A stretch of DNA of 63,288 nucleotides from Candidatus Omnitrophota bacterium (GCA_013203315.1 JABMQJ010000013.1:1-63288), one strand, 5' to 3'; counted from the stretch's first letter, positions 19,930 through 35,589 are shown. The notes: a model not told the origin generated them from the letters alone. Program-made: numbers and translations.

Positions 19930-22900
19930 TTATATCGACTTCATGACATCCTTATGGCATCTCTGCCAGTCGGCAATGGTCTCGAAGAGGGTCTTCATTC
20001 GCAGTGCGTGTTTAAAGAGGTATTTGAATAGATCTTCTAAGCTATTAACGCCTTCAACGCTATTCTCAGCTATTTTGCTTAAGTGGTCTTTTATGTCTCT
20101 GATTCCGGATTGATCACCTGTATTGCGGCAATCTGCGATAAGGCGCGCTAATGCCCCGCGGTTAGCCAGGTCCGGATATTCGTAATCAGTGCATGCATCG
20201 GGGATGACAGTAACATTTGCCTCGTCTTGATATTTGCCATGTGACTTTCCTGCAAGTTGCGGGCCATCTTCCATTTCTGCAGCAAACGAGACGATATGCA
20301 TTTTAGTAAGTTTTTCTATTAAGCCTTCCATTTCTTCTTTGTGAGCTTTTCCTTGCTTTGCCAATTCGCTTATCTTATGTTGTAACTTATGCAATGTTTC
20401 CATTGCCCTATCCACGGCTTTCCAGTAATTTTCCTCTGTCTTCGCGGGATCGTCCGGATCTACTTCATATGGTATTACCTGATCTGTGTCCATTTCCCTA
20501 TGATAAGAAGAATCTTCCAGGATTCCGAAACCGGCCTTGGCTAAATCTTTGTTTAGATCCTTAATTGTCTGCATGACTCTATTATGTTCACCCATTCCCT
20601 TTGCCCCCTTAGGCACCGGAATCGGTACTATAGCCTTAACTATATCTCCTGCCCGGACAACCTTACTGTATCCGTCGATCGCAGCGCCTTTACGTGCTTC
20701 GACAGTGTCTGGTTTTGGCACACTTGGAGAAACGTCTGTCGGTTCCAAAGCTGTAACTTGTGGCGGCTCTGCAGCAGCAGGTTCATCCCTATAATCATTC
20801 CTACGGAATACTGTCAACATTCCGTTGTTACTTTTGAAGTAATCGAAATATTTTCCTATCTCGTCTCCATTTTCAAAAACTGCTCCGGGAAGCCCAGCCA
20901 CGGCAAAACAAGCCCCTGGCTTCATGCTTCTAAGATGTCCTAACAATTCCATGGCAAAGGGAACCCCGTCTTCTAATTTGTTTTTCGGTGTATCGGGAAA
21001 TGTAAAGTAGAAATAAATAACGTCATACGACGATACATCAGTATTTAAAACATCGGCTATCTCAAAGGTCAATTGCTCACCTGGAATTTCCGCTCTTTCA
21101 GCTATCATTTCGAGGTTTCCTCTTATATAAAGTTCTGTTTTTTCTTTTATTTCAATAGTGTGAACTCTAGCACCGGCTGTTGTGAAGAACGCAGCGGATT
21201 CCCCCCTTCCTGTCCCGATTTCAAGTACAGTTTTGCTTTCATCGATTCCCAGCATAGCAATAAAAGCTCTGATCCATTCCGGGTTTGAAGCTGCATATAT
21301 TCCACCTTTGACGTCAAATAGCGGACTCGGTGGCCTCTCTATCGCCTCAAGCTGTGGTATCATTTCAAGAATAGCGTTCCATTTATTCAGATCCGGAGTA
21401 ACATTAGTACTACCTATACCAGGCATGAGAAAGAGTTTGGGGATAGCCTTACCCTGGCCCCTCGCCGGTTCCGGACTTGCGGCGCGGGACACGTCTTCAA
21501 GCCGTCTGAACCATTCAAGAAATCTACGCGGGTTCTGTTCTTTTGAGAACGTCTTAAAATAGAGCTTCTGTTCTTCTCTGTCTCGCGGAAGTTCCACAGG
21601 TTCCAACCCTGCCCTTCGCCTCAGAATATTCATAATGTCCCAGCCTGTCCGCGTATTGCCGTCATAGAAAGGATGGATAACTTGGTGAAAAAGCCAGAAA
21701 GCGATCGCCGCGTGGGTTGAGGGATTTCCTAAGTCAATATCTTCCCACGAACTCTTATCGCTGATCCATTCGCCCAGTGAAGCGAAGGAACGCGGGTCTA
21801 CGCAAGTATCGTGCGGCAGGTTAATCCACTTTAGAAAATCGACGACCTGCTGAGAAATTACTTTATGATTATCAAACTGCGCTACTATGTTTCCGTCAAA
21901 ATCTTCAACTCCAATTGACGTTGAACGATATGGCGCAATCGGTAGCGCCAGTTCAAACGATAATATCTCCCTGACGGTACCATGTTCTGCAGTCCAGTAT
22001 AAATAACTTAGCTGTCGAATATCGATTTCGGTAATCGCTCTACTTGACTCAGCGAGTTCCGAGACAAAATCTCTGATAAGTTGGTAAAGTCGTTGCCACG
22101 TCTCTTCTACTCCTCCGGGCTTATAACCCGTGTTAATAGCTTCGGCGGCAGAGGTTTTTGTTACCCGGGATCTAAGTAAATCAACTAATCTACTTTTCGC
22201 AGATGCTCTTCTTACAAAGAAGTATCCGTATCGTCCCTCATTTCCGGGCTCTGTTGCTTCTGTGAACATGGCACCTGCATATCCGTTATTCGCAAGCAAA
22301 TATTGTACTACAAAAAATGCAAGACGGTAATGACCGGACGCAGTATGCGGAATCGGTATACCTGTTTGTGTTGCGCTAGGCGGTTTATGTTGCTCTGTTA
22401 TTTTATCAAATCCTGGCAATCCGGGAGCAAGGTCTCTTTTTCCTACCTGGCTTACTTTTTCGTCGTGTTCTAGAAGTATCTGGCGCTTAGCAATGTATAT
22501 ATAAAGATCTGCTGCAGCTTCGAAAAGCTCTTCTTCGTTCTCATACTGCCTGTTTGCGACGTCTAATATATTCATATCGGCTGGGAGTCGTTCGTTCAAG
22601 GAACGCAATCTTTCAGCGCGTATCGCAGCTGTATATTCAGGATTTCCATTGTCTCCTCTATATAGTTCATATAAATTTAAAAGTTTTTCCCACGTAAGTG
22701 GTTCAAACGGCAGCCTCGCTGCTTCTCTCGGTACTAATACATCATCATTGAAATGTTTGACTGCTTCCATAAAATATTCATTCTCTATCCCTACACTTAC
22801 CAATAGCTTTAAGCTGTCTAAGGGGCCTCTTGTATCTTGTGCAGCTTCTGCTCCTTCCCGGCTCTTCGCCGGTTCCTTGCTCGCGGTTATGCCGATGCCG

Positions 22901-25900
22901 GATATAGGAGAAATGTATTCTACTTCGATTTCTTCGGCTTTCTGCCAATATTCCTTGGCCTTTTCTAGTTGCTTTTCCTTTTTTATACGCTTCATGCGGT
23001 GCGCTCTTGCCTTATCTGATCTAGGAGGAGCAAATGGTACAGTTTTATTAAGCACATTAGATTCTTCCTGACATATATCTACAACATTTCTCCAGGCCAT
23101 TTTATGGGCTTTTGTAAAAAATCTCATTGCCTGTAAGTAACTAAAGCCACTTGAATCGTCTCCATCGCGCCAGTCGGACATTTTTTGTATATCCCACCCA
23201 TGGCGACGTTGCGCCTCATCTAAAGCAATCCTATACTCCTGTTCTTCATGCATGATTTCTAGTTCGACTTCGATTCTATCTCGTGGCAATTCCTTCGTCC
23301 CGGCAGCAACCCATATAATACCTTCGTTCTTGTTTCTTGCGGTAAAGCCGACGTGACCGGTGAAGGGTTGACCATTCACTTCGCCCAGTTTATCTACGGG
23401 AAGTTCTACTACCCATAATCTCTTAGCTTTTTTGCCTTCGCCAATTGTTATGTAATTACCTTGCGCAAGCTTCTCAATCGGTAACCACTTATCTTTTGGC
23501 ACATCATCACCGGATTTTCCTTGATTCTGGTACCACTCCTGAAATGCTTTATACTCCCGCGGTGTAATTCCTTTCGCTTCGGCAATAGCCTCTAAATTAT
23601 CGCCCAGCGTTTCAACTATGCAATCGTTAAGATTTCCCGCTCTTCTATGCGGTAGTATCCCTGCCTCTGAAACGCCAATGCCTCCTTCGTCGCTTTCCGG
23701 TATGTGCGCAGTGGGGTCCGGGACACCATATCTGCGCTGTAAGTCTAACACAAAAAGACGGCCTCGTTTTGTCTCCCTTTTTGCTTCTTCAACCATCATA
23801 TCAGCGCAATCGCTATAAAGAATGTTGACAAGCCTCTTTTCTCCCCGTGAATGAAGTGTAAAATATCTATATTGTCCGGTTTCTGCAACAGCACCGATAG
23901 ATGCGCTTAGAAGACCTCTGGCAATGCCCTTACCTTCATATCCTTTTCTAGTTGCTATACCAACTAGATAATATGCTTCTTCGGCATTTATAGACGTTAT
24001 ATATTTTTTCTTATCAGCCTTTCCTGGTTCTGCGCATGTTACGCATCCGACAATTTTTCCGTTAGCTCGGGCGATAAAAGTTACGGCTCGAGGATTCTTC
24101 ATAGTATTTATCATTCGATCTATCCATGGTCTCCCAAATGCAAAAGAGCTCCACAAAAGCTCCCTTAATTCCTCTTCATTAGTTGCATCTTTGATAGTTT
24201 CCATGGAAATTTCTACACCGCTTACCAAGGGTATTGTAGAAATTGGGGACGGTTCTGGTTTTTCGTCCTTCGCCGGTTCCTCGGCCGCAGCTTGCTCATT
24301 CATCTTACGCGCCTCTGTAGGCAGCATGTCTTCATCTAAGGGTGGTGCTCTCTCGCCGATGGCTTTCATTTCGGCATCGTCCTCTGCCTCGGCTCGAGTC
24401 ATTCCCTCAATTGCATTGATTTCAGCGAGGAGAAGATCGCGCTGTTCTGGTGACATATTTAGTTCACGGGTTCGCCTGCGCATGTAATCCCAATTTATCC
24501 CATCTGTCTTTTGTCTTTCTGACAGGTTAAGTTCTACTACAAAACCGTGGCGGTTTGTAGAATCTAACGATTCCTGAATACCTGCAACAGGTAATTCACT
24601 ATCGCCAAGGTCATATGCCAGGTAACATTTTCTGCCGCTTATATTTCTTTCATATAAATTTTGCTGCAATACAACACTTCGGTCTATATCATTGAAAAAA
24701 ACTGTTAAGAGCAGCAAATCTTCAAAGCTGGTGTGCCTTTCTAGGATTTCCCCATTACTATATGTGTCGGTAATTTTGGTAAGCGTTGTCCCGTCTTGTA
24801 ATACCCTTATTTCTGCCAAATTATCGAAACCGACCTCTTGCGCTCTCTTAAATACATCTATTTCATTATTAAGGCCTCTTTTACTCAAAATTCCGCTATC
24901 TTCGGCATTATATGCAAAAAATAGTTGTCCATCCGGAGCTTCGTAAATTTTAGCCAATATCGAAAGTGTATAAACATCTCTTGAGAGAACCCACCCATCA
25001 GGATATTCTGACAAACAATCCAAATCAACAGGATCAAACACATGAAGTTTCCCATCCGGCCCTAACTTAACAGCAGAACTGATATCGTGTGTGATATAAT
25101 TTCCTGGATCCGTAATATCATATGCATCGTCGCCCTCTTTTGACGACGGGCCGAGGATTGTTTCTCCCTTTTCGTCGCGGTGGAATTTCTTTAAAAGTGC
25201 TATGAAACGCTTTATGGGGGAAACGATGGGCCCTCCGTTTGCAATATATGTGCCAAAAGTAACAAGGCCACCCATGGCAATAAGTAAAGGAAGATTGACC
25301 GGCCAGTCACCTAAAATAGACCCTTCAAGAAGAACCAGCAGAATCGTTCCGGAGGCTGCAATAGGCGCAAGATGCGTAACACCGAAACCCTTTATCCCTT
25401 GAGCTTTATACATAAAGTAATAACTCAGTGGGAAAAGGATTGCCGTACCGAAAATAAGCAAAGGATGTAAAATGAGAGAAAAGGCGCTCGCGCCTGAGAG
25501 GTATAATACAAAAGTAACCGCAGCAAAAACTGTCGCTGCCAGTTTGTATCCATATTTTACCGTAAGCAATTGCGCTTGCGGGTTAGATTCTTCGGATTCA
25601 CGCTGCCGGCTAAAGAATGTTTTGTGGATTACCTGCCTTATTGCAAGTGAAAGAGCCGAAATTACTACGGCTACGATACCGATAATCGCTAGTCCCGGCA
25701 TTCCTGTGTTTGCCCCATTACTTAAGAAACTTACAACCGTCAGCACCCCGATTAGGGTAAGAGCATTTCCGATAAGTTTCCTGGGCGTTATGGATTCCTT
25801 AAGAATAAATCTGCCTAAAAGTAGTCCAAATATCACAGCCGCTTGAGAAGCGAAAGCGGCTGTTCTCACATTGACTAATGATAGCCCGAAATGAAAAGAT

Positions 25901-28900
25901 GCGCCGCATATAATATGCGCAAAAACCGAACCCCAGAAGACGAGCCTCTTATCTTTTACATCAAGTTTTTCATAGAATTCACGTTCAGGGGAAATGACAT
26001 CGCGAATACTTTTTCTTTCGCCTTTTTTGTCTTTCACCAAATAAGAAATAAGATAGGCAACGGACATCCAGACGCTTGCAAAAAACGCCAGGCTAAACAT
26101 GTATTGAACCGCCACTATCTCCTGCATGCTTCCACTGGCAACTTCAGGCATATAGGAACTCAAGACAATTTTGCTCAATACTATGCCTAATGAGGCTACT
26201 ATTACACCTATGGCGGCTAAGAAGGAACCCTTTAATCGCCCGTCTTGACCTTGAGACGGTTCTTGTTTTTCATCCCTCGCCGGTTCCGCGACCGCTGCCA
26301 TCCTGGCGCATGCCCCGACAAGAGGATCGTTTAAAATCGAAACCGCTAGATCAGGTTTACCTGAAACAGGTCGGAGATCTTTATAACTCGGACTTGTCGG
26401 CGATAACGGTTTAAACTTGTTTTTATCTTCGATCAACCGGCCAAATTCGACTTCCAGATTGCCGTTCTGATTACGAAAGACACGAGCAGCAATAGGTGTA
26501 GTCATATAACGTGGAACTATACCCGTTTCTACTATAGCAATTGTATTACTTGCGCTGACTCTTTGCGAATCAAACTCGCGCACAAACATATGATCGGGAT
26601 ATTTAATAATAGGGACACCGGTCACATCCAGATCGTTTACAATAGAATTTTTATCAAAAGATAAGCCTTCAGGGCCTTTTGTTGATCCCTCCACAAGCAT
26701 AGGCCATCCTCTCTTTATGCCTAACTTTAAGTTATATTGTCTATGGGTAAGCCAGTTTAGGAGAAGTGCTATTGGGCCTGTTATGGGCGCTAATGTATAT
26801 ACGGCTTCCAGATATGGCATGTTTGCAAGAAGCGCAGGTATAATAGGTACGCCCAGTACGGGAATAAGCATCGCTACCCATATGCCTAGTATGCCGAGGG
26901 ATCTATATAGGTAGTCCTTCCATGTCTTATTTTCATGCAAGAATAGGAACCATGGCAGGAAGGTTTGGGGGATTTCTCTCCAGGCTGCGTACTTGGCTAT
27001 AAAGAGTTTCTCTTCTCTTGTCAGATCTTCCCATGTTGTATCTTCTGTCTTACCCAGCTTCTTTAGAGCTTTTTTGAAGGTAGCTTTGGTGGTGAGGGGG
27101 GCTGGTGGCTGGGTGTCGTCGGTTTCTCCTCCGGTATCCGCTAACATAGAATCTATCGGGCTTGTTGTAAGCTTACCATCTACCTCGTCATAATATCGTA
27201 TCAGAAGTGATTGGAGTAGTTCCCTTATCTCTCCGCTTATTTTATCCGATTTGAGGGCATTAAACATTGTATCTACTGCGTATTCCCGAACGTCTTGAGA
27301 GATTTGGTCCCTTGAAGCGAAATTAAACAACTCCCTCGCGCATAATGCTCTTGCATCTTCAAGCGTGTCCGGATAATAAGCCATGATATACGCCAAGCTG
27401 TCCACAGCCTCTTTTGTAGCCTCGCTACGCAACAAATGCAACAAGCTCCTAATGGTAGCACCATCTACATCTTGTGTTTTTACGCCTAATGCAGCACCTT
27501 TAGTAACACGCTTTGATAGCCTCACCTTATAATAGTTAAGTAGTCTCACCGCCAATATAGTGACGAGAGCAATTGAGCCCGTAAATGCAACCGGCCAACC
27601 AATGGAACGCAACTCCGGTGGCATAATGATGAGCACCATTGCTAACGCTGAAATTACTGTCCACAGGGTTTTTCTTTTTGGGTCAAGACTACCTTCTTCA
27701 TCTTCATTAAAATCTCTTATAATACTTAGGACGATTCCTGCCAGGCCGAGAGTAAGGAAATTGGTTGGGGAGAGTCCGCCAGATGTATCGTCTTTAGCAG
27801 TAAGACCTGTTTTTTCAGAATACAAATCTTCGCCGTAAACAATGGGAAGTTCTGAAATTTCCACTCCAGCATTTCTTTCAGCAGCGAGAAGCCCTATAAT
27901 TTCGTTTGTATAGACATCTGCCTTACGGCAATATAAACATTCTTGCGGATCAATAGGTAGTAAATCACTTTGTTTTCTCTGCAATAAAACGGGTACCGTG
28001 TCGGTTTCCACATCTGTACCAGTAAATAATTCAAACTGTGGCTCTCTATTTGCAGGTTGTGATTTTGTTATACATGCATATACAGTGTCTGACCCAAAAG
28101 AATAAGCAACGCTTAGATTACCGGCAGCCACGGGGCAATTATGCATCTGTGGTAAAGATTCACGCGGTATTACATCACTCGCATTCAGCATTTCTTTTTG
28201 CATTATATATTGTGAAAATTTATCATCGAAAAATATAGAGACGCCGTTGATCTTTCCATTTTTTCTCTGATAATATGTTTTTTCCAGCACTTCCAAGATC
28301 GCGGTGTTATACTCGCCCTTGCCTTGGATAGCTGTAAAATTGACAAAGTCTATTCCTAAATCTTTTGCCAATAGAATAAAATCATCAACCTCTTGATAAT
28401 TCTGCTCACCTACAACAAAGCCCATTCCTATTCGTAACCGTGTTTCTCCTGCTAATGCACGCTCATTTCGTAGCTCTACGGATCTACGAATGGTTTCTAC
28501 AATTCTCCCATATCTATGTTCCATCTCTCTTCTTCCGGCACCTTCCAATTTTAACGCCCCAAATGTTTCCGGAGTTGCCGCATCAATTGAGAAGAAAAGT
28601 CTGTTTACTTTCAATACACACATTTCAATATCAGATTCACTCAAGAGTTCGCCGTTTGTATAAATCGAAAGATAAATGTCGGATCCTCTATTGCGTATTT
28701 CATCTACATAAAGTTGCAGGCTTTCATAGAATGGTTCGCCGCTTCCGCTAAGATTTATCTTTTTCACTCCCATTCCTATGAATTGGTCTATTACTTCAAT
28801 CCTTCTCTCCTCTCCGGCAATACTGATTGGAGGTCCTCCTTCAATAATTATCAACTCACCATCAGCAGTTAGTCTCGTAGCGTTGAAACAATGTGCACAT

Positions 28901-31900
28901 CTCAGAAGGCAAAATGAGCTAGGATGGATTTCCAAAACCTGAGGAACAATTTTTCCATCTAATATAGCCTGTATAGTTGACTGATCCTGACCCATGAATT
29001 CCCGAAACATGCTTAGTGCCCTGGGCCTTGCAGATTCGTATGATAAGAGATCTTGGAATTTTGGGGTATTTCTTAAAATAGCGTATATTTCTTTGATATC
29101 GCCAATCGTTAAATCTACACCATATACTTTACTAATATTTGATATTAATAATTGCGTGGGTTGTAGTGGATTTATAAGTAATTCTCTCAGAACATAAATA
29201 CAACTATGTGCAGTAGCTTCAGGTACATTTGTCTGCAATTCGTCTGTGATTAACCTAAGCGTCCGCACGTCGTGAGGGTTGTTAATTAAACTTGATCTAA
29301 GTTTTGATGCAGGATCTTTACGGGCGCTTCGTGTGATAATATAGTAAACTGCACCTACAGCCACTGCAACCAGCGCTATTGCCGCAGCTATCGTAGCGCC
29401 ATAGCTAAATAAGCCAACGATAGGTTCTCCTGCTGCTTGTGCGACTTGCCCAAGAGGTGCCTTTTCTAAACCAGCCGCAAATCCCGGCGTTGCGAGGGCA
29501 CCAAGAAGTATGATCGACAGAAGAATCATTGTGGATTTGTTGAAAAGTGTTTTTAAGGTTTTACCGAATTTGCTAATAGCTGCGGAGAGGATGGTTATGA
29601 GACGAGACCTTTGTTTACGTGAATCTGGGGCGATGAGTTCCGGAAATTCTTGCTCAGGGGCAAAGTCCGCGCTAAGTTCCGTAATCTTTTCTATAGTTCT
29701 TGCCACCCGTTCATATGGTATTCCTTCAGGGGTGGGGTACCCATCAATCTCTTCCGGAAGCCTTTCAATGCCCATCGCTTCTATGCTTGTCTTTAACCCT
29801 TCTAAATCAAAAGCAACAACATAGACTTTCCTGGTTCCGTCGGTTTCTTGCCGAACTACAACACCGATATTCTCGTAGATTGGCGCGTATATAAGCGGAA
29901 TATCTATTACCGGGTTTTGACGTTTTGCGTTCTCAAGCAGTCCTACCAAATTCTCGTCTCCCTTGTTACGTGCAATGCCTACAGCCTCATCTAGAGGAAT
30001 AGCTCTTTCTACGACATCCATAGGTTGATTCAAAACATTTCTCATTCTTGCAACCAACTTGTCATTATTAGCTAATGCGGCCATCTCTGCTTCGCTTTCT
30101 CCTATTATCATACAATTAAGCATGTGGCGTAACGGATGCATATAATAGACTCTGATAACGTAGTTTTTTACTAAAAATGTGACCTTCCCTCCAGCAGATT
30201 CCAAATCTTGAATAGCCGCACCAAATATATCTCGAACCATCTTCTTGGTGTCACTGGGCAGAATATGTGTACCAAAAGTTTTTTGGATATCGAGATATCT
30301 TTCAAGATCGTGAATAAAAACACTGAGATTTTTACGTGTTTTTATAGCGTCGCGCAAATAGTTATTTAAAAGTTCTCTTTCTGGTAATGATGCATTATCT
30401 ATGAGACTTTTTGCTTTTATCTCATTTTGTTTGCTAGATCTACGATGCCACCATCTCGCCATTACCCATATACCGCCGGCGGCGGCAAGAATTATACCTA
30501 TTATCTTGGCTATGTCTAACCCGGACCAAGCCCCTAGACCTGCCCCAGCATGCGGAAGTGCTTCACCTGCTGCAGCCGCAAATCCTGGTGCTGCGAGGAA
30601 GGTTAGGGTTATACCGATTGCTGCCAGGAAGAGGAGGGGAGTTGAAATATTCATAGACAAGGTACGACCGTCTTTAGCCTCTGCTGGTTTAGCTTTTTTG
30701 TCTGATTCAGTTTTGTCAGACTCTATAACTTCTTTCATAGCATCCATGTAGGCCTTTAAATGCAGATCGATAGGAAAATCCTTATGAACCCACCAGGGTA
30801 GGGCGCCGCTGTAGCCACGCCTTCTAGTATTCCTTAAGACATGTGAAAAAAGCGGTCTATTATACATATCAACCGGCTGATATTCTCCAACGATCACATC
30901 AACTTCAGGAGAGATATTAAGCCATTCCCTGCCTGCTTTATCAGAATCAAACCCCCGGAGTTCCTTGACGTCATCCCCTGTGTAATGAGGTTTTGTGTAA
31001 TAATGGAAGTTGGCCAAGTCTCCCGGCTCCATCAAATGTATCCAATATTTTAATGTCTCCCTGCTAACTGCACTGAAACTAACAGGTAAATTCGTCTGTT
31101 CCCGGATACTCGTGGCAACATCAGCTACAAAATCCTGCCTGAGCCACAAAGGCATGTGCCGGTATTCTCCTGTAACCGGATCAGTGAAGCCTACAAGATA
31201 TCTTTCGGCTCCTCCAGCCGCATTCTCATCAACGTCTGGTTCGTTCATAGGTTCGATAGCCCTTATTACATCCGAATATTGCTTCAAGATATTAAGTTCC
31301 GGTTCAATACTCATTAGAAAATTAGCCCGCTTTTTGCGATCCAGAAAAAGCTCGGGATGAGTTCTAGCCAGCAAATAATCAAATAATACGGGAACTCCTC
31401 GGATCTTGTATTTTCTTAAAAGTTCGCAATAAGCCCTGATATTTTTCTCGGCTACCTTATGATCTATAACGACTGTACCATCTTCTAAAACCTTAACTGA
31501 CTCAAGATTTGCAAATGTAAATCGCCTGTCCATAAATTTAAGGTCTTTCAGTCCTTTCATATCAGGAAACTTCCTTGCCAGTGCATTCCTCATAGCGGCA
31601 AGGGCCCTAAACTCCTTTTCGACAAGTACGCCTGCAGTCCCTGCAAATCCGTCCCTTTCATCCGTAAATACCTTTGAATATGTCTCGGGACTGGTATATC
31701 CTCCAGTGCCTAAATACCTTAAGAAATCGATAGTACTCGGTTTTTTTACTTGGACAGGCTTCTTACGTAGAAGTTCGGTTTTAATCGGCTCAGGTTCGGA
31801 TTCTACCGGTGGATTTTTTATCACCGGTTCTTTTCCTGTAACTTCTAATTTGTGTATTTTAAGCTTGCCTCTAAAGCGGGTTCCTTTTTCTACATCAGAG

Positions 31901-34900
31901 CAAAAGCCTACCTCAATACGCACCCAACTTGCATGTTCACCCGTAAACCCCTTACCGGTCCAGGCCTTGCCGTCAGGAGACGCTGACGGATGAAATTCCA
32001 TGGTTATTTTTTGTCCTTTTTTAACGTTTATATTTTTAGGTAAATCCATCTGCCCGCCATTAACAGCGCTCCAGACCCCAATCTTAAATTCCATTAATGG
32101 TACATCTTCGAACCCTTTATCCGGTATTACTTCAAAAGTAACCTTGAAACCACCATCTCTCATGTCAAAGCGATGTTTTACTAAATGACTGCCATGTTCC
32201 GTAAGTCCATCTATCGATGTATCTTTAGAAGGAAAGGCGGCATATTCCACGTCAATACCAAAACCTCCGTGCCCATCTCCGTCGTCCTCTGTTTTTGCCA
32301 AATCAAGCTCGGCCGCTACTTTACCGTCTTCCCTATCCCAGCCTATTTCTCTTATACCTTTACCATATGAATTGTAACCCGCCATCCAGCTAACAGACTT
32401 ATGCAGATCATATACTGTTATATTAAGCTTTGGATCTACTGATTTCCTATCGGGTTCCGCTATCATCCTAAAACGATCATCTTTACCTGCTAAAATCCGA
32501 GGATGTTCTTCTGCGCTTATTTTAGTTCCTCTTTCTACACTTTCCCACACTGCGCCTGTCTTACGATCCTTAATACGCGTATAAGAAGCATCGTCCGTAG
32601 TTTTAGTCTTATCTGCCGCGATGGATCTTTCTTTGGGTAAAAATATTGAGGCAATACCCGCACCAGCGATACGAAGAAATCCTCTTCTGCCTATTGATCT
32701 CCACCAAGGTTCCTTGCTGGAGGCCGGGGACGGTTCACCTTTTGTCGACGCCCACACATCATCATCTTTTCGCAGGCTTTCTGCGCTAATGTCGGATGCT
32801 GAAGTTAATTTAGCAATAGCATTAGAAATCGCCTTTTTTTGTGCTTTTCTGTCGCGGGCATAACTCGCTAAGGTAAGCTCCTTATTTAATTCACGTATCG
32901 CTGACTGCAATTGGGCAGGATTTGCTGTATTAAAGAGTTCATTTATTCGGCTGCTTCCTGCATCGTTACAGCCGACATCTTCAAACAACCTGCAAAGCAA
33001 TATAATCGGGATATCTAGTCCTGGACGCAATAGTAATTTTGCCTTTAGCTCTCGCGCATACTCCCATTTCTTATAGTTCGCAAGTGCGATTATGCGGGAC
33101 AAATCGCAAGTTTCCTTCCCCAGTATCCATCCCAATATAGTGCATTCGAGAGTGCTAAACGCAAATTCAAGTGACAAAAGACCTGTAGAAATTAAAATTA
33201 CGTACATATAAATTGCATGATTTCCTGACAATATCTCTTTCGCGGCGGGTATTCCTAAATACAATAACAAACCTGAAACAACTAGTGTTGCCAACGGTCC
33301 GCCGGATCCTATTAGAATACCTTTTAAACCTCTATCTTTTATAGGCGGGTCAAACTCCTTATTTCTATATGTATCGAGTATTCGCTTTATTGTAAGTCTA
33401 TTTCCACCAAAGAAACTGGATATAGGGTGTAGCAGGATGTACACAAATATATGACCTGATTCGTGAACAAAAATATCAAGTGCTAAAATAGCTGTAAGAA
33501 TACCTGCCAAACTTTTTCTTATAAAACGGGTAGAATTCCATGCAATCATAGGCGAAACAGGTGTCATTTGTATAGAATCCGGGGACGCCTCCTTCGCCAT
33601 AGCGGCTATGGGGTAAGGTTCTTTGACTTCGGCTGGTGTTGCAACAAGATCCGCGAGTATAATGTCAGCGCCTTCAGCATCTCTTTGACCGGTAGGTTGT
33701 TTATATATGCCTGCTGTTAGTGTGAGGCCTTCGGTTTCTTCGGTATATGTGTAATATGGGTTTTCAGGTATATCACTTGGAGATATGACTATATCCCAGC
33801 CTATCAGGGTTCCTATGGTAAATGGCTTATTGCTAAATACTGCCGCCAATATTTGGGCCTTTAGTGAAACTTGATTCCTATCTTTTATATCAACAACACC
33901 CATTTGAGAGAATAAGCTACTAATGGCAAGAGCAGAGTGCTGGGTGGTATACGATATGGCTTTATTTAGAAACTTGTCTAATTTAGTTTCTTTTCCCGCT
34001 AAGAGACTAAAATACGGAGATTCGTAGCCTTTTTTAGTCTTGAAGTTTGGTAGTATGCCAATGTAGGAGATGTTGTTTCGCTTGAAGAGTTTTGCAAGAT
34101 TGCCTGAGTGAAAACCACCGGTTATGAGAATGGCCGTATCTTTTAGTTTTATATTCTTTAAAAAGGCTTCGTCACGCTTAAATGTGCACTCGTAACATTC
34201 AGCCATGTTTTTGACATGGCGGTCGAGCTCTTGCATGTTCTCATCGGGCCTTGCGGTTATCCTGTAAAGAGGCGCCTCTTTTTCTATGAACGCGGTGAAA
34301 TTCTTTATGCGGAATGAGTCTTTGTTTTCTTTGTAGTACCGGTAGTCATCGTTTGTTATGGCCAGATTAAACATGCCCCGTATTAAAGTGAAGTTTTTAT
34401 GTAAAGCGCTAAGCTCTCTTTGCTTATCGTTTGTTAGGAGGGCTGCTTTGACCACGTCTTTTAAGCTATCTATTTCTTTCATTATTTTGGATTTATCGAT
34501 AGCCTTGTATTTTGAGGAGCAGGAAATGTATTTTTGGAACTGGGGGAACCGGTTTAGGTTTATGCCTACTGATTTTGCCTTCTCGAAAAGATAGGCATGG
34601 AAGTCGTATTGTGATATCTTCTTAGTTTTGAACTGGACTGTCTTTAAAATAATCTCTTCAAGCGCCCGTTTGGAAAGTATCTTCTGGAATTCGTCTATCA
34701 GTTTCTTTCGTTCCCTCGTTACCTCTTTGAAATCCATACCATCTTCCTGTCCGAAAGACTCTTCCAGGAGGTATATGTTGGGGAAGGCTTCGGTATCTAT
34801 ATTCTCTTCTTTCGCAGTCTTTATGAGGTAGGAAAGATAGTCTTTGAAGCCAAAAGTGTTTTCCCGGTAGTTTACGTAGTTTTCGTCAAATTCGAGAAGT

Positions 34901-35589
34901 TCTTTTGAGTATATGTTGCGGCGCAGGTTATTCAGAACATGCTCAAGAGACTTCAGGTATTTATCGATTGCGTCTTTGTGCTTTAGGGAGTTTTTCGTTA
35001 GCTTAAGGTTTTCGAGATAAAGCTTCGTATTCTCTATGCCCCAGAGGCTTGCTTTATCGGGGTTATTTATGGCGAAGTACTCACCGCCGTTTACGATACC
35101 CTCTTTTACGAAGTAATCGGCTACTTTCTCTCTTATGCGCCCATCAGCGATTCCGGTAAATACCGAAAGGTCATACGCGCCTTTCCCACCCTCAAGATTG
35201 ATCGAGCTTATGCCGTACTCTTCACTGAGATGCTCGATTATGTCGTTTATCTTGTGCTGGGCAAAATAGTTACAGTGCGCATCCTGGATGTGGATTACTG
35301 TTTTCCCCGAATTGGCGTTATCGATGCTTCGTATGTGGGCAAGCTCTTCTGGCAGGTCAAATGACTCGACATCTAATGCGTTAATAGAACCCGGGCCGGC
35401 AGGCCTATTAGAACTGGTACTCGACAGTTCTAACGGTGTTCTGCTGGCCCAGGCTTTTTCCAAAAGGAATTCTCCGCTAATATTAGTAAACAAAAAGGAC
35501 CAAAGAGTAATAAAAGCTATTACCCTAATTGGTCCTTTAAACCTGCAAATATAATTATGATCTTGATTATTAAATCGAGTACGTAACAT
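19930..35589 (-). CDS. Giant 5219-aa multi-module membrane protein (ChaN-like, M50-like, CBM-like plus GH-A hydrolase, radical SAM, EamA, kinase-like, GNAT, Fic x2, SAM-methyltransferase)
   Basis: Uninterrupted 15.66 kb ORF with GGGAG RBS; recognisable motifs HESGH, RRGFLR, NEP/GEY, CLLRCAHC, GYEGKGIA, HPFYDGNTR, VLEIGTGRG. Confidence 0.93.
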   Translation of the reverse strand: MLRTRFNNQDHNYICRFKGPIRVIAFITLWSFLFTNISGEFLLEKAWASRTPLELSSTSSNRPAGPGSINALDVESFDLPEELAHIRSIDNANSGKTVIHIQDAHCNYFAQHKINDIIEHLSEEYGISSINLEGGKGAYDLSVFTGIADGRIREKVADYFVKEGIVNGGEYFAINNPDKASLWGIENTKLYLENLKLTKNSLKHKDAIDKYLKSLEHVLNNLRRNIYSKELLEFDENYVNYRENTFGFKDYLSYLIKTAKEENIDTEAFPNIYLLEESFGQEDGMDFKEVTRERKKLIDEFQKILSKRALEEIILKTVQFKTKKISQYDFHAYLFEKAKSVGINLNRFPQFQKYISCSSKYKAIDKSKIMKEIDSLKDVVKAALLTNDKQRELSALHKNFTLIRGMFNLAITNDDYRYYKENKDSFRIKNFTAFIEKEAPLYRITARPDENMQELDRHVKNMAECYECTFKRDEAFLKNIKLKDTAILITGGFHSGNLAKLFKRNNISYIGILPNFKTKKGYESPYFSLLAGKETKLDKFLNKAISYTTQHSALAISSLFSQMGVVDIKDRNQVSLKAQILAAVFSNKPFTIGTLIGWDIVISPSDIPENPYYTYTEETEGLTLTAGIYKQPTGQRDAEGADIILADLVATPAEVKEPYPIAAMAKEASPDSIQMTPVSPMIAWNSTRFIRKSLAGILTAILALDIFVHESGHIFVYILLHPISSFFGGNRLTIKRILDTYRNKEFDPPIKDRGLKGILIGSGGPLATLVVSGLLLYLGIPAAKEILSGNHAIYMYVILISTGLLSLEFAFSTLECTILGWILGKETCDLSRIIALANYKKWEYARELKAKLLLRPGLDIPIILLCRLFEDVGCNDAGSSRINELFNTANPAQLQSAIRELNKELTLASYARDRKAQKKAISNAIAKLTSASDISAESLRKDDDVWASTKGEPSPASSKEPWWRSIGRRGFLRIAGAGIASIFLPKERSIAADKTKTTDDASYTRIKDRKTGAVWESVERGTKISAEEHPRILAGKDDRFRMIAEPDRKSVDPKLNITVYDLHKSVSWMAGYNSYGKGIREIGWDREDGKVAAELDLAKTEDDGDGHGGFGIDVEYAAFPSKDTSIDGLTEHGSHLVKHRFDMRDGGFKVTFEVIPDKGFEDVPLMEFKIGVWSAVNGGQMDLPKNINVKKGQKITMEFHPSASPDGKAWTGKGFTGEHASWVRIEVGFCSDVEKGTRFRGKLKIHKLEVTGKEPVIKNPPVESEPEPIKTELLRKKPVQVKKPSTIDFLRYLGTGGYTSPETYSKVFTDERDGFAGTAGVLVEKEFRALAAMRNALARKFPDMKGLKDLKFMDRRFTFANLESVKVLEDGTVVIDHKVAEKNIRAYCELLRKYKIRGVPVLFDYLLARTHPELFLDRKKRANFLMSIEPELNILKQYSDVIRAIEPMNEPDVDENAAGGAERYLVGFTDPVTGEYRHMPLWLRQDFVADVATSIREQTNLPVSFSAVSRETLKYWIHLMEPGDLANFHYYTKPHYTGDDVKELRGFDSDKAGREWLNISPEVDVIVGEYQPVDMYNRPLFSHVLRNTRRRGYSGALPWWVHKDFPIDLHLKAYMDAMKEVIESDKTESDKKAKPAEAKDGRTLSMNISTPLLFLAAIGITLTFLAAPGFAAAAGEALPHAGAGLGAWSGLDIAKIIGIILAAAGGIWVMARWWHRRSSKQNEIKAKSLIDNASLPERELLNNYLRDAIKTRKNLSVFIHDLERYLDIQKTFGTHILPSDTKKMVRDIFGAAIQDLESAGGKVTFLVKNYVIRVYYMHPLRHMLNCMIIGESEAEMAALANNDKLVARMRNVLNQPMDVVERAIPLDEAVGIARNKGDENLVGLLENAKRQNPVIDIPLIYAPIYENIGVVVRQETDGTRKVYVVAFDLEGLKTSIEAMGIERLPEEIDGYPTPEGIPYERVARTIEKITELSADFAPEQEFPELIAPDSRKQRSRLITILSAAISKFGKTLKTLFNKSTMILLSIILLGALATPGFAAGLEKAPLGQVAQAAGEPIVGLFSYGATIAAAIALVAVAVGAVYYIITRSARKDPASKLRSSLINNPHDVRTLRLITDELQTNVPEATAHSCIYVLRELLINPLQPTQLLISNISKVYGVDLTIGDIKEIYAILRNTPKFQDLLSYESARPRALSMFREFMGQDQSTIQAILDGKIVPQVLEIHPSSFCLLRCAHCFNATRLTADGELIIIEGGPPISIAGEERRIEVIDQFIGMGVKKINLSGSGEPFYESLQLYVDEIRNRGSDIYLSIYTNGELLSESDIEMCVLKVNRLFFSIDAATPETFGALKLEGAGRREMEHRYGRIVETIRRSVELRNERALAGETRLRIGMGFVVGEQNYQEVDDFILLAKDLGIDFVNFTAIQGKGEYNTAILEVLEKTYYQRKNGKINGVSIFFDDKFSQYIMQKEMLNASDVIPRESLPQMHNCPVAAGNLSVAYSFGSDTVYACITKSQPANREPQFELFTGTDVETDTVPVLLQRKQSDLLPIDPQECLYCRKADVYTNEIIGLLAAERNAGVEISELPIVYGEDLYSEKTGLTAKDDTSGGLSPTNFLTLGLAGIVLSIIRDFNEDEEGSLDPKRKTLWTVISALAMVLIIMPPELRSIGWPVAFTGSIALVTILAVRLLNYYKVRLSKRVTKGAALGVKTQDVDGATIRSLLHLLRSEATKEAVDSLAYIMAYYPDTLEDARALCARELFNFASRDQISQDVREYAVDTMFNALKSDKISGEIRELLQSLLIRYYDEVDGKLTTSPIDSMLADTGGETDDTQPPAPLTTKATFKKALKKLGKTEDTTWEDLTREEKLFIAKYAAWREIPQTFLPWFLFLHENKTWKDYLYRSLGILGIWVAMLIPVLGVPIIPALLANMPYLEAVYTLAPITGPIALLLNWLTHRQYNLKLGIKRGWPMLVEGSTKGPEGLSFDKNSIVNDLDVTGVPIIKYPDHMFVREFDSQRVSASNTIAIVETGIVPRYMTTPIAARVFRNQNGNLEVEFGRLIEDKNKFKPLSPTSPSYKDLRPVSGKPDLAVSILNDPLVGACARMAAVAEPARDEKQEPSQGQDGRLKGSFLAAIGVIVASLGIVLSKIVLSSYMPEVASGSMQEIVAVQYMFSLAFFASVWMSVAYLISYLVKDKKGERKSIRDVISPEREFYEKLDVKDKRLVFWGSVFAHIICGASFHFGLSLVNVRTAAFASQAAVIFGLLLGRFILKESITPRKLIGNALTLIGVLTVVSFLSNGANTGMPGLAIIGIVAVVISALSLAIRQVIHKTFFSRQRESEESNPQAQLLTVKYGYKLAATVFAAVTFVLYLSGASAFSLILHPLLIFGTAILFPLSYYFMYKAQGIKGFGVTHLAPIAASGTILLVLLEGSILGDWPVNLPLLIAMGGLVTFGTYIANGGPIVSPIKRFIALLKKFHRDEKGETILGPSSKEGDDAYDITDPGNYITHDISSAVKLGPDGKLHVFDPVDLDCLSEYPDGWVLSRDVYTLSILAKIYEAPDGQLFFAYNAEDSGILSKRGLNNEIDVFKRAQEVGFDNLAEIRVLQDGTTLTKITDTYSNGEILERHTSFEDLLLLTVFFNDIDRSVVLQQNLYERNISGRKCYLAYDLGDSELPVAGIQESLDSTNRHGFVVELNLSERQKTDGINWDYMRRRTRELNMSPEQRDLLLAEINAIEGMTRAEAEDDAEMKAIGERAPPLDEDMLPTEARKMNEQAAAEEPAKDEKPEPSPISTIPLVSGVEISMETIKDATNEEELRELLWSSFAFGRPWIDRMINTMKNPRAVTFIARANGKIVGCVTCAEPGKADKKKYITSINAEEAYYLVGIATRKGYEGKGIARGLLSASIGAVAETGQYRYFTLHSRGEKRLVNILYSDCADMMVEEAKRETKRGRLFVLDLQRRYGVPDPTAHIPESDEGGIGVSEAGILPHRRAGNLNDCIVETLGDNLEAIAEAKGITPREYKAFQEWYQNQGKSGDDVPKDKWLPIEKLAQGNYITIGEGKKAKRLWVVELPVDKLGEVNGQPFTGHVGFTARNKNEGIIWVAAGTKELPRDRIEVELEIMHEEQEYRIALDEAQRRHGWDIQKMSDWRDGDDSSGFSYLQAMRFFTKAHKMAWRNVVDICQEESNVLNKTVPFAPPRSDKARAHRMKRIKKEKQLEKAKEYWQKAEEIEVEYISPISGIGITASKEPAKSREGAEAAQDTRGPLDSLKLLVSVGIENEYFMEAVKHFNDDVLVPREAARLPFEPLTWEKLLNLYELYRGDNGNPEYTAAIRAERLRSLNERLPADMNILDVANRQYENEEELFEAAADLYIYIAKRQILLEHDEKVSQVGKRDLAPGLPGFDKITEQHKPPSATQTGIPIPHTASGHYRLAFFVVQYLLANNGYAGAMFTEATEPGNEGRYGYFFVRRASAKSRLVDLLRSRVTKTSAAEAINTGYKPGGVEETWQRLYQLIRDFVSELAESSRAITEIDIRQLSYLYWTAEHGTVREILSFELALPIAPYRSTSIGVEDFDGNIVAQFDNHKVISQQVVDFLKWINLPHDTCVDPRSFASLGEWISDKSSWEDIDLGNPSTHAAIAFWLFHQVIHPFYDGNTRTGWDIMNILRRRAGLEPVELPRDREEQKLYFKTFSKEQNPRRFLEWFRRLEDVSRAASPEPARGQGKAIPKLFLMPGIGSTNVTPDLNKWNAILEMIPQLEAIERPPSPLFDVKGGIYAASNPEWIRAFIAMLGIDESKTVLEIGTGRGESAAFFTTAGARVHTIEIKEKTELYIRGNLEMIAERAEIPGEQLTFEIADVLNTDVSSYDVIYFYFTFPDTPKNKLEDGVPFAMELLGHLRSMKPGACFAVAGLPGAVFENGDEIGKYFDYFKSNNGMLTVFRRNDYRDEPAAAEPPQVTALEPTDVSPSVPKPDTVEARKGAAIDGYSKVVRAGDIVKAIVPIPVPKGAKGMGEHNRVMQTIKDLNKDLAKAGFGILEDSSYHREMDTDQVIPYEVDPDDPAKTEENYWKAVDRAMETLHKLQHKISELAKQGKAHKEEMEGLIEKLTKMHIVSFAAEMEDGPQLAGKSHGKYQDEANVTVIPDACTDYEYPDLANRGALARLIADCRNTGDQSGIRDIKDHLSKIAENSVEGVNSLEDLFKYLFKHALRMKTLFETIADWQRCHKDVMKSI

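What the first reader, a model, noticed from the sequence alone, without database searches (positions are those of the whole stretch)
30740..32400. CBM-like beta domain plus clan GH-A (GH5-like) glycoside hydrolase
MNEPD acid/base (Asn-Glu-Pro at 31237-31245), NFHYY, VIVGEY nucleophile (Glu at 30883-30885) and GALPWW are all in the GH5-type order. They are preceded by a Pro-rich linker and a Trp/Gly-rich beta-sandwich-like region. This suggests attack on extracellular beta-glycans, for example the surface or matrix of a host or prey cell.
Basis: partly seen in the sequence, partly recalled or inferred. Interest (0 to 1): 0.6.

Follow-up and report, generated by a model that had tools for sequence, protein, structure and literature searches.

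The report
Divergent GH5 mannanase-like module in giant protein

Summary
All four motifs sit at the stated coordinates on the minus strand, inside one 5,219-aa ORF (19930-35589).

- **Direct searches:** Pfam, NCBIfam and single-sequence PDB searches find nothing in this copy.
- **Homologues:** 47 homologues, almost all inside long Omnitrophota proteins, keep the catalytic set. E1450 and H1529 are in 47/47, N1449, R1355 and W1599 in 46/47, and E1569 in 45/47.
- **Profile search:** the family profile hits the four solved GH5_10 beta-mannanases at E 1e-36 to 1e-32. Other GH5 mannanases come next at 1e-14 or weaker.
- **Structure:** an AlphaFold model (pLDDT 87.5, pTM 0.86) shows a beta-sandwich (aa 1057-1253), a Pro-rich linker, and a (beta/alpha)8 barrel (aa 1285-1633). 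The acid/base lies at the end of beta4 and the nucleophile at the end of beta7. The best structural match is 5Y6T, at Z 26.7.
- **Beta domain:** it is a family without a Pfam match in 33 members, with 1-4 copies before the barrel. A CBM role is a lead only.
- **Location:** relatives carry lipoprotein or Sec signals, which favours a site outside the cytoplasm. However, the uncut protein's membrane layout conflicts with this, and neither TatC nor TatA was found.
- **Substrate:** the genome has a GH113/GH130/PMM mannan-use locus, so a nutritional role rivals prey attack.

Verdict: a divergent new member of GH5. Earlier notes of this scan, all on this same window, already flagged the Tat-like leader and the hairpins.

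The parts
19930..35589 (-). Host ORF of 5,219 aa. It is a mosaic, multi-TM long protein that also carries radical SAM, EamA, GNAT, Fic and methyltransferase domains.
   Evidence: The same protein is seen on 3 contigs in other assemblies.
32620..32688 (-). Leader-like segment at aa 968-990: a twin-Arg motif (RRGFLRIAG), a short hydrophobic stretch, then SIAA.
   Evidence: RR leaders also precede the module in P0005, L002 and L014. TatC and TatA were not found in the genome.
31831..32421 (-). Gly/Trp-rich beta-sandwich accessory domain, aa 1057-1253. It belongs to a family-specific domain with no Pfam match.
   Evidence: The AlphaFold model shows about 13 strands; pLDDT is mostly 85-96 in the C-terminal half and lower in the N-terminal half. 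The domain recurs in 1-4 copies before the barrel in homologues. No Pfam family is shared. CBM leads are weak.
31738..31830 (-). Pro/Lys/Glu-rich linker, aa 1254-1284.
   Evidence: pLDDT about 72.
30691..31737 (-). (beta/alpha)8 barrel, a GH5-like catalytic domain, aa 1285-1633.
31525..31527 (-). Arg1355 on beta2, the conserved GH5 Arg.
   Evidence: 46/47 homologues; lies in strand model 313-321.
31237..31245 (-). Asn1449-Glu1450-Pro1451. Glu1450 is the predicted general acid/base at the C-terminal end of beta4.
   Evidence: N 46/47, E 47/47, P 45/47. Aligned to the NEP of the 4OOU, 2C0H and 3VUP mannanases (4OOU again). The strand ends at model residue 410.
30997..31005 (-). His1529-Tyr1530-Tyr1531 on beta6, the conserved GH5 His and Tyr.
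   Evidence: H 47/47, Y1531 42/47.
30883..30885 (-). Glu1569, the predicted catalytic nucleophile at the end of beta7.
   Evidence: 45/47. Aligned to the GE nucleophile of GH5 mannanases. Lies in strand model 525-531.
30793..30795 (-). Trp1599 on beta8, the conserved GH5 Trp.
   Evidence: 46/47.
30457..30648 (-). Two hydrophobic segments, aa 1648-1670 and 1690-1711, that follow the module and tether it to the membrane.
   Evidence: Hydropathy scan and the sequence shown.

Best explanation
Residues about 1057-1633 of the 5,219-aa protein form a two-domain glycosidase module. An N-terminal beta-sandwich accessory domain is joined by a Pro-rich linker to a catalytically intact (beta/alpha)8 barrel. 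The barrel belongs to glycoside hydrolase family 5 (clan GH-A), and its nearest characterised relatives are the GH5_10 endo-beta-1,4-mannanases. By homology it should cleave a beta-linked glycan by the retaining double-displacement mechanism. Glu1569 (end of beta7) attacks the anomeric carbon. Glu1450 (the NEP motif, end of beta4) acts as general acid/base. Arg1355, His1529, Tyr1531 and Trp1599 build the -1 subsite. The module is held at the membrane by a leader-like segment in front (aa 968-990) and a hydrophobic pair behind (aa 1648-1711). It most likely works on the outer face of the cytoplasmic membrane. The most likely substrate class is a beta-mannan-like polymer. Shown here: the fold, the homology and the residue conservation. 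Inferred: activity, retention of configuration, substrate and side of the membrane.
For: Motifs lie at the exact coordinates given.

Homologues:
- Single-sequence search of 1.84 billion representative proteins gave only 14 hits, mostly inside proteins of 1,000-7,000 aa.
- In 47 homologues, E1450 and H1529 are invariant. N1449, R1355 and W1599 are 46/47, E1569 is 45/47 and Y1531 is 42/47.
- 22 of 47 members hit Pfam PF00150 (GH5), best 4e-9.

Profile against solved structures:
- The 11-sequence profile hits 4OOU at 2.3e-12 over the whole domain.
- The 47-sequence profile hits 4OOU, 3VUP, 2C0H and 5Y6T at 1.3e-36 to 1.2e-32. The next GH5 mannanases score 1.7e-14 or weaker.
- 2C0H is the GH5_10 reference structure (PMC3526467).

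Structure:
- AlphaFold2 model: pLDDT 87.5, pTM 0.86, eight barrel strands, catalytic residues at strand ends.
- Foldseek's top hits are the same four mannanases, E about 2e-11 to 8e-10.
- VIA-align gives 5Y6T Z 26.7, rmsd 3.3 A over 300 residues, and the next GH5 mannanases at Z about 19.
- ESM Atlas neighbours are cellulase or GH5_mannosidase clusters.

Location outside the cytoplasm:
- Stand-alone relatives P0017, P0018 and P0019 carry lipoboxes, and P0013 has a signal anchor.
- The paralogue in the same genome has a Sec signal peptide.
- RR or lipobox leaders directly precede the module in P0005, P0010, L002, L014 and L020.

Mannan as substrate: the same genome encodes a locus with GH113 (a mannanase family), GH130 (beta-1,4-mannooligosaccharide phosphorylase), PGM/PMM, a sugar MFS transporter and ABC permeases.
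Against: - This copy matches no Pfam or NCBIfam model and no PDB sequence on its own. Membership rests on the family profile and the model.
- Identity to the structural matches is only about 14%, so specificity cannot be transferred safely.
- The conserved GH5 His after beta3 is Asp1404 in this family (43/47).
- The window's copy has Asn1361 where 44/47 relatives have Asp, at the end of beta2. In the printed 4OOU alignment that column pairs with a Glu.
- Topology is unresolved. Both flanks of the hydrophobic pair at aa 1648-1711 are Lys/Arg-rich. Four hydrophobic segments lie between the module and the radical SAM domain, which is presumably cytoplasmic. If the module is outside, the uncut chain breaks the positive-inside rule.
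- TatC and TatA were not found in the 97%-complete genome.
- Hydrophobic leaders within 110 aa upstream occur in 9 of 44 homologous modules, against 13% of random windows. That is no clear enrichment.
Confidence: 0.8

Rival explanations
1. It is the same enzyme, but a weapon rather than a feeding tool. Displayed on the cell surface as part of a giant Omnitrophota protein, it cuts a surface or matrix glycan of a host or prey cell. This is the first reader's suggestion and the 'cell-wall degradation' hypothesis for Omnitrophota giant proteins.
For: The organism is an Omnitrophota bacterium with a 1.5-Mb genome and several giant ORFs, the longest 16,618 aa. Giant Omnitrophota proteins with glycosyl hydrolase domains have been proposed to act in predation (bioRxiv 10.1101/2023.11.21.568195; 10.64898/2026.06.07.730766). 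The same catalytic domain ends a secreted 1,776-aa RHS-repeat protein in this genome, and it sits among RHS/YD repeats in relatives. RHS proteins commonly deliver effector domains (general knowledge).
Against: No prey, target glycan or delivery route is known. The RHS paralogue shows no DPxGL motif before the domain. The genome has an ordinary mannan-utilisation locus, which explains a mannanase without predation. The topology of the uncut protein is unresolved.
Confidence: 0.25
2. It is a GH5 enzyme with a non-mannan specificity, for example beta-1,4-glucan, xyloglucan, beta-1,3-glucan or a glycoconjugate. The GH5_10 likeness would then reflect ancestry only.
For: GH5 holds many specificities, and about 20% of its sequences fall outside defined subfamilies (PMC3526467). 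Identity to the mannanases is about 14%. The subgroup containing the window's copy has an insertion of about 20 aa after beta4, modelled as a hairpin, which could reshape the cleft.
Against: The four GH5_10 mannanases stand about 20 orders of magnitude in E-value and 7 Z units above all other GH5 structures. One stand-alone relative is precomputed as PF26410, which the Atlas table names GH5_mannosidase.
Confidence: 0.3
3. The module trims or remodels the cell's own exopolysaccharide or envelope glycan, like the periplasmic hydrolases of polysaccharide-secretion systems (BcsZ, PslG).
For: It is membrane-tethered. The same ORF carries an EamA-type transporter, GNAT, methyltransferase and radical SAM domains that could modify a glycan or small molecule. 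One beta-domain homologue weakly hits BcsB.
Against: No glycosyltransferase or polysaccharide-export domain was detected in this ORF. The flanking genes are housekeeping genes (plsY, gpsA, der). This reading rests on analogy only.
Confidence: 0.1
4. The module stays in the cytoplasm, or is a non-catalytic binding module. The leader-like segment would be a relic of a captured secreted gene.
For: If aa 973-988 does not span the membrane, the whole chain obeys the positive-inside rule. No Tat machinery was found. The hydrophobic part of the leader is short, with a best 15-residue hydropathy mean of 1.71.
Against: All catalytic residues are kept under strong conservation. Relatives carry lipoprotein or Sec signals. 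A beta-sandwich plus endo-glycanase-like barrel is typical of extracytoplasmic enzymes (general knowledge).
Confidence: 0.12

Closest known systems
GH5 subfamily 10 endo-beta-1,4-mannanases (PDB 2C0H Mytilus edulis, 4OOU Cryptopygus antarcticus, 3VUP Aplysia kurodai, 5Y6T Eisenia fetida)
   Same: Both have the (beta/alpha)8 barrel, the NEP acid/base on beta4, the GE nucleophile on beta7, and Arg (beta2), His/Tyr (beta6) and Trp (beta8). They are the best matches by sequence profile (E 1e-36 to 1e-32) and by structure (Z 26.7).
   Different: Identity is about 14%. The window's copy is invisible to Pfam PF00150. It has Asp instead of His/Asn after beta3, an extra hairpin after beta4, and its own N-terminal beta-sandwich. 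It is embedded in a 5,219-aa membrane protein rather than being a small secreted enzyme. Activity is untested.
Glycosyl hydrolase domains of giant Omnitrophota proteins ('Archaeovorins', West-Roberts et al. 2023 preprint, 10.1101/2023.11.21.568195)
   Same: The phylum is the same. Both are very long multi-domain proteins that mix glycosyl hydrolase, methyltransferase and other enzyme domains with membrane segments.
   Different: That work treats proteins of 30,000 aa or more and names a GH76-like fold. GH5 and mannan are not mentioned in it. This protein has 5,219 aa and a GH5_10-like module.
Modular CBM-GH enzymes of clan GH-A, e.g. CBM15-GH10 Xyn10C (1US2) and CBM22-GH10 Xyn10B (2WYS)
   Same: Both have an N-terminal beta-sandwich followed by a clan GH-A barrel. 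Foldseek aligns both domains over about 610 columns. The beta-domain profile weakly touches CBM15, 1GNY at E 0.5.
   Different: The catalytic family differs (GH10). The CBM similarity is not significant, and carbohydrate binding by this beta domain is untested.
RHS/YD-repeat proteins with variable C-terminal domains
   Same: The paralogue in this genome (G000 contig 3, 1,776 aa) has a Sec signal and RHS repeats, and carries this GH5-like domain at its C-terminus.
   Different: The window's copy is not in an RHS protein. No DPxGL motif was found before the paralogue's domain.

Membership tests
Glycoside hydrolase family 5 (clan GH-A) | (beta/alpha)8 TIM-barrel catalytic domain | tested here: met
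   The AlphaFold2 model (pLDDT 87.5) has eight strand-helix units over aa 1285-1633. GH5 structures are the top Foldseek and VIA hits.
Glycoside hydrolase family 5 (clan GH-A) | General acid/base Glu in an Asn-Glu-Pro motif at the C-terminal end of beta4 | tested here: met
   N1449-E1450-P1451. E is 47/47, N 46/47, P 45/47. The beta4 strand ends at model residue 410 = N1449. Aligned to NEP of 4OOU, 2C0H and 3VUP (4OOU again).
Glycoside hydrolase family 5 (clan GH-A) | Nucleophile Glu at the C-terminal end of beta7 | tested here: met
   E1569 is 45/47. It lies in strand model 525-531 and aligns to the GE of GH5 mannanases.
Glycoside hydrolase family 5 (clan GH-A) | Further conserved active-site residues: Arg (beta2), His (beta3), His and Tyr (beta6), Trp (beta8). 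This list is from general knowledge of GH5. | tested here: inconclusive
   R1355 46/47, H1529 47/47, Y1531 42/47 and W1599 46/47 are present. The beta3 position is Asp1404 (43/47), not His. In the printed 4OOU alignment this column pairs with Asn.
Glycoside hydrolase family 5 (clan GH-A) | Significant sequence similarity to family members (Pfam PF00150 above its cut-off) | tested here: inconclusive
   The window's copy has no hit. At family level, 22/47 members hit at E <= 0.01, best 4e-9, and the profile hits GH5 mannanase structures at 1e-36. No CAZy or dbCAN models were available.
Glycoside hydrolase family 5 (clan GH-A) | Retaining hydrolysis of a beta-glycosidic bond | not testable with these tools
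   Needs enzyme assays and product stereochemistry.
GH5 subfamily 10 | Falls in the GH5_10 clade or subfamily model | tested here: inconclusive
   The four GH5_10 structures are by far the best matches, but identity is about 14%. No subfamily HMM or reference tree was available.
GH5 subfamily 10 | [quoted passage not shown] | not testable with these tools
   The only support is contextual: a GH113/GH130/PMM locus in the same genome.
Carbohydrate-binding module (beta domain, aa 1057-1253) | Beta-sandwich fold | tested here: met
   About 13 strands in the model. pLDDT is mostly 85-96 for aa 1140-1253 and lower (33-92) for aa 1040-1139.
Carbohydrate-binding module (beta domain, aa 1057-1253) | Membership of a defined CBM family | tested here: inconclusive
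   No Pfam family is shared by the 33 members. CBM15 (1GNY) scores E 0.5. Language-model neighbours include CBM30, CBM27, SGBP_B_XBD and Exop_C at 0.93-0.94, with recognition just below the tool's threshold. The domain was not fold-searched alone.
Carbohydrate-binding module (beta domain, aa 1057-1253) | Binds carbohydrate | not testable with these tools
   Needs binding assays.
Tat (twin-arginine) exported protein | RR motif followed by a hydrophobic stretch before the exported domain | tested here: met
   RRGFLRIAGAGIASIFLP at aa 968-985.
Tat (twin-arginine) exported protein | Tat translocase (TatC, TatA) encoded by the organism | tested here: not met
   PF00902 and PF02416 were not found in the 97.15%-complete genome. 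Each family was detected in 11 of 14 control genomes.
Archaeovorin-type giant Omnitrophota proteins | Length of 30,000 aa or more with the recurrent GT/GH/peptidase/methylase/NUDIX domain set | tested here: not met
   The ORF is 5,219 aa. GH, methyltransferase, radical SAM, GNAT, Fic and EamA domains were found. No GT, peptidase or NUDIX domain was found by Pfam.

The most novel reading that the evidence does not exclude
The GH5_10-like barrel and its private beta-sandwich form a new GH5 subfamily that Omnitrophota have spread through giant membrane-threaded proteins and RHS-repeat proteins. It would serve as a surface-displayed or delivered effector that cuts a mannan-like glycan in the envelope or sheath of host or prey cells.
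Probability: 0.15. Interest if true: 0.7.

Novelty: new member of a known kind. Interest (0 to 1): 0.35.

Why it matters
- **Annotation:** the module assigns a concrete, testable enzymatic function to about 580 residues of an otherwise opaque 5,219-aa Omnitrophota protein. Standard pipelines miss this GH5 lineage: Pfam and NCBIfam give no hit on this copy, and the sources call relatives 'hypothetical protein' or 'glycosyltransferase'.
- **Distribution:** the family occurs in 33 of 401 Omnitrophota genomes searched and in 22 of 25 genomes of one family. It is usually inside very long proteins.
- **Biology:** Omnitrophota are thought to live by attaching to or preying on other cells. The substrate of this enzyme would therefore show whether such proteins feed on environmental mannans or cut a partner's surface.
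- **Limits:** the enzyme class, fold and mechanism are textbook, and glycosyl hydrolase domains in giant Omnitrophota proteins are already reported. The finding is useful, not surprising.

Tried and rejected
- Direct Pfam scan of aa 950-1700: no family.
- NCBIfam on 11 family members: none.
- phmmer of the domain against PDB sequences: no hit up to E 10.
- Word-indexed homologue search with the single domain at near length: nothing.
- AlphaFold2 on the single sequence: pLDDT 38.5, unusable. It was replaced by the 47-sequence alignment.
VIA-wide rows covered only model residues 243-589, so no statement about its nearest solved fold can be made.
- Hydrophobic leaders upstream of homologous modules: 9/44 against a 13% background, no clear enrichment. 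Only the individual RR, lipobox and Sec examples are used.
- Sequencing runs: the DNA stretch is held complete or nearly complete (share of words 0.97-1.00) in four freshwater metagenome runs of one study, which may be its source.
- 'Chance motifs in a long ORF' was rejected on the conservation and profile evidence.
- Plus-strand shadow ORFs over the region (30401-30751, 31010-31360, 31706-31993) were not pursued, because the minus-strand frame carries the conserved protein.

Full report
**Observation.** The interval 30740-32400 lies on the minus strand inside a single ORF, 19930-35589, of 5,219 aa.

| Motif | Residues | Key nucleotides |
|---|---|---|
| MNEPD | aa 1448-1452 | NEP = nt 31237-31245 |
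| NFHYY | aa 1527-1531 | |
| VIVGEY | aa 1565-1570 | Glu1569 = nt 30883-30885 |
| GALPWW | aa 1595-1600 | |

The linker EPVIKNPPVESEPEP... (aa 1254-1284) is 22.6% Pro. The region before it (aa 1057-1253) has twice the protein's average Gly and Trp content. The module is slightly longer than the stated interval, at aa 1057-1633 = nt 30691-32421.

**Context.** The ORF sits between plsY and gpsA in a run of housekeeping genes, all on the minus strand. The genome is 1.5 Mb, 97% complete and in 32 contigs. Relatives that carry the domain are named Candidatus Omnitrophota. The genome has other very long open frames of 16,618, 5,926, 3,025, 2,813 and 2,701 aa. Elsewhere in the same ORF, Pfam finds radical SAM, EamA, GNAT, Fic and methyltransferase domains, but nothing in aa 950-1700. 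The 5,219-aa protein is seen on three contigs of other assemblies. The DNA is held in four freshwater metagenome runs of one study.

**Is it a GH5-like enzyme?** Direct searches were blank: Pfam, PDB sequences and NCBIfam.

- *Homologues.* An exhaustive phmmer search of 1.84 billion representative proteins gave only 14 hits. Four were at 39-46% identity, and nearly all lay inside proteins of 1,000-7,000 aa. An 11-sequence alignment showed N-E-P, H-x-Y, G-E and W as invariant columns.
- *Links to GH5.* Two of the distant homologues reach the Pfam GH5 model PF00150 just above its cut-off. In a 47-sequence set, 22 members hit PF00150, best 4e-9.
- *Profile against solved structures.* The 11-sequence profile hits the beta-mannanases 4OOU, 2C0H, 3VUP and 5Y6T at 2.3e-12 to 3.2e-8 over the full domain. 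The 47-sequence profile hits the same four at 1.3e-36 to 1.2e-32. The next GH5 mannanases score 1.7e-14 or weaker. 2C0H is the reference structure of subfamily GH5_10, whose characterised members are extracellular endo-beta-1,4-mannanases (PMC3526467).
- *Conservation across 47 sequences*: R1355 46, D1404 43, N1449 46, E1450 47, H1529 47, Y1531 42, E1569 45, W1599 46.

**Structure.** The single-sequence AlphaFold run failed, with pLDDT 38.5. With the 47-sequence alignment, the model of aa 1040-1635 reached pLDDT 87.5 and pTM 0.86. It shows three parts:

- an all-beta domain (model residues 18-214);
- a lower-confidence linker;
- eight strand-helix units.

R1355 lies in beta2 and D1404 at the end of beta3. 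N1449/E1450 lie at the end of beta4 and H1529 in beta6. E1569 lies at the end of beta7 and W1599 at the end of beta8. This is the clan GH-A '4/7' arrangement.

Foldseek against the PDB ranks the four GH5_10 mannanases first, at E about 2e-11 to 8e-10, followed by other clan GH-A enzymes. VIA-align against 48,161 representative chains gives 5Y6T at Z 26.7 (rmsd 3.3 A over 300 residues), 7 units above the next GH5 mannanases at about 19. ESM Atlas neighbours are 'cellulase family' and 'GH5_mannosidase' clusters, plus unannotated proteins of about 310 aa from Acidobacteriota.

**The beta domain.** Iterative search shows that aa about 1055-1260 is a recurring domain. It stands directly before the barrel in most homologues, in one to four tandem copies.

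- No Pfam family is shared by its 33 members.
- Its profile touches CBM15 of Xyn10C (1GNY, 1US2) only at E 0.5-0.9.
- Language-model neighbours are galactose-binding-like or CBM clusters (CBM30, CBM27, SGBP_B_XBD, Exop_C) at 0.93-0.94, with recognition just below the tool's threshold.
- Foldseek aligns both domains to CBM22-GH10 and CBM15-GH10 enzymes, with poor global superposition.

'Beta-sandwich' is shown. 'CBM' is a reasonable but unproven label. The domain could not be folded and searched alone.

**Distribution.** With the family profile, 33 of 401 Omnitrophota genomes have a match. These include 22 of 25 genomes of one family and 2 of 4 others in the window's own family. There are often several copies per genome, in open frames of 600 to 17,367 aa.

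The window's genome has a second copy at the C-terminus of a 1,776-aa protein with a Sec signal peptide and RHS repeats. RHS repeats flank the domain in several relatives. The genome also has four Pfam-detectable GH5 domains, one of them inside the 16,618-aa ORF.

**Where does it act?**

*For an extracytoplasmic site:*
- Stand-alone relatives P0017, P0018 and P0019 have lipoprotein signals, and P0013 has a signal anchor.
- The RHS paralogue has a Sec signal.
- RR-type or lipobox leaders stand directly before the module in P0005, P0010, L002, L014 and L020, and in the window (RRGFLRIAG, aa 968-976).
- With the N-terminal anchor and three crossings at aa 690-811, a crossing at aa 973-988 would put the module outside (inference).

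*Against:*
- The two hydrophobic segments after the module (aa 1648-1711) have Lys/Arg-rich flanks on both sides.
- Four hydrophobic segments separate the module from the radical SAM domain. An outside module therefore violates the positive-inside rule in the uncut chain (inference).
- TatC and TatA were not found in the genome, so the RR segment is probably not a working Tat signal here.
- Leaders are not clearly enriched across all homologues, at 9/44 against a 13% background.

I put the outside location at roughly 60-65%.

**Substrate and role.** The GH5_10 affinity points to beta-mannan-like substrates. Contig 18 of the same genome independently carries an apparent mannan-utilisation locus. 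It contains:

- a GH113 enzyme with an F5/8 type C domain;
- a mannanase-type galactose-binding domain protein;
- a GH130 beta-1,4-mannooligosaccharide phosphorylase;
- a PGM/PMM;
- an MFS sugar transporter;
- two ABC permeases.

This makes a nutritional role plausible: the enzyme releases manno-oligosaccharides that are imported and phosphorolysed. The prey-attack reading rests on the Omnitrophota literature and on the RHS association. Neither role was tested.

Two caveats limit transfer of specificity. Identity to characterised enzymes is about 14%. The window's copy also has Asn1361 where 44/47 relatives have Asp.

**Comparison and novelty.** The module works like, and by profile and fold belongs with, GH5 enzymes. 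Its nearest neighbours are the GH5_10 mannanases. Whether it falls inside GH5_10 or forms a new subfamily needs CAZy models and a tree. Glycosyl hydrolase domains in giant Omnitrophota proteins are already described, although GH5 and mannan are not mentioned there. I therefore class the finding as a new, divergent member of a known kind, of moderate interest.

**Earlier notes.** Earlier notes of this scan on the same window had flagged the internal Tat-like leader, the hairpins and the polyprotein idea. I checked the leader and the layout partly and independently.

Noticed in passing
G000 contig 3, L046:2159-7489 (-): A second copy of the same GH5-like domain ends a 1,776-aa protein that has an N-terminal Sec signal peptide and RHS repeats. 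No DPxGL motif precedes the domain. In relatives, RHS/YD repeats flank the domain.
   Followed up: partly
G000 contig 18, L047:588-9022 (-): An apparent beta-mannan utilisation locus. It holds a Mann_GBD protein, GH113 with F5/8 type C, an ABC permease, PGM/PMM, an MFS_2 sugar transporter, a GH130 mannooligosaccharide phosphorylase and a second ABC permease. A 2,176-aa or longer ORF (L047:9137-15667, -) adjoins it at higher coordinates.
   Followed up: partly
whole genome G000: TatC (PF00902) and TatA/B/E (PF02416) were not found in the 97%-complete genome, although a textbook RRxFL leader stands before the module at window 32620-32688.
   Followed up: partly
window 33400-33520 (-), aa about 690-730: An HExxH motif (VHESGHI) lies within a long hydrophobic stretch and is followed by two more TM segments. 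This is reminiscent of a membrane-embedded metalloprotease, such as a site-2 protease, and raises the question of self-processing. Pfam gives no hit.
   Followed up: no
window 33760-35563 (-), aa 9-610: The N-terminal 600 residues are shared at 35-39% identity with the N-termini of two other long proteins, P0003 and P0006. The rest of those proteins is arranged differently, and the GH5 module sits at very different positions (aa 1385, 3470). Modules appear to be shuffled between these long proteins.
   Followed up: partly
protein cluster of the window's ORF: On a 79,495-bp contig of another assembly, the same protein is called as two genes of 392 and 4,813 aa (P0020, P0021). This points to a break or sequencing difference near aa 392-406 in that assembly.
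   Followed up: no
P0008 about aa 6829-6855 (homologue, downstream of its GH5-like domain): A type IV pilin-like N-terminal motif (GFTLVES followed by a hydrophobic helix) lies inside a 7,255-aa protein, directly after the glycosidase module.
   Followed up: no
G000 contigs 2, 3, 18, 25: There are four further Pfam-detectable GH5 (PF00150) domains in this 1.5-Mb genome, one inside the 16,618-aa ORF on contig 25.
   Followed up: no
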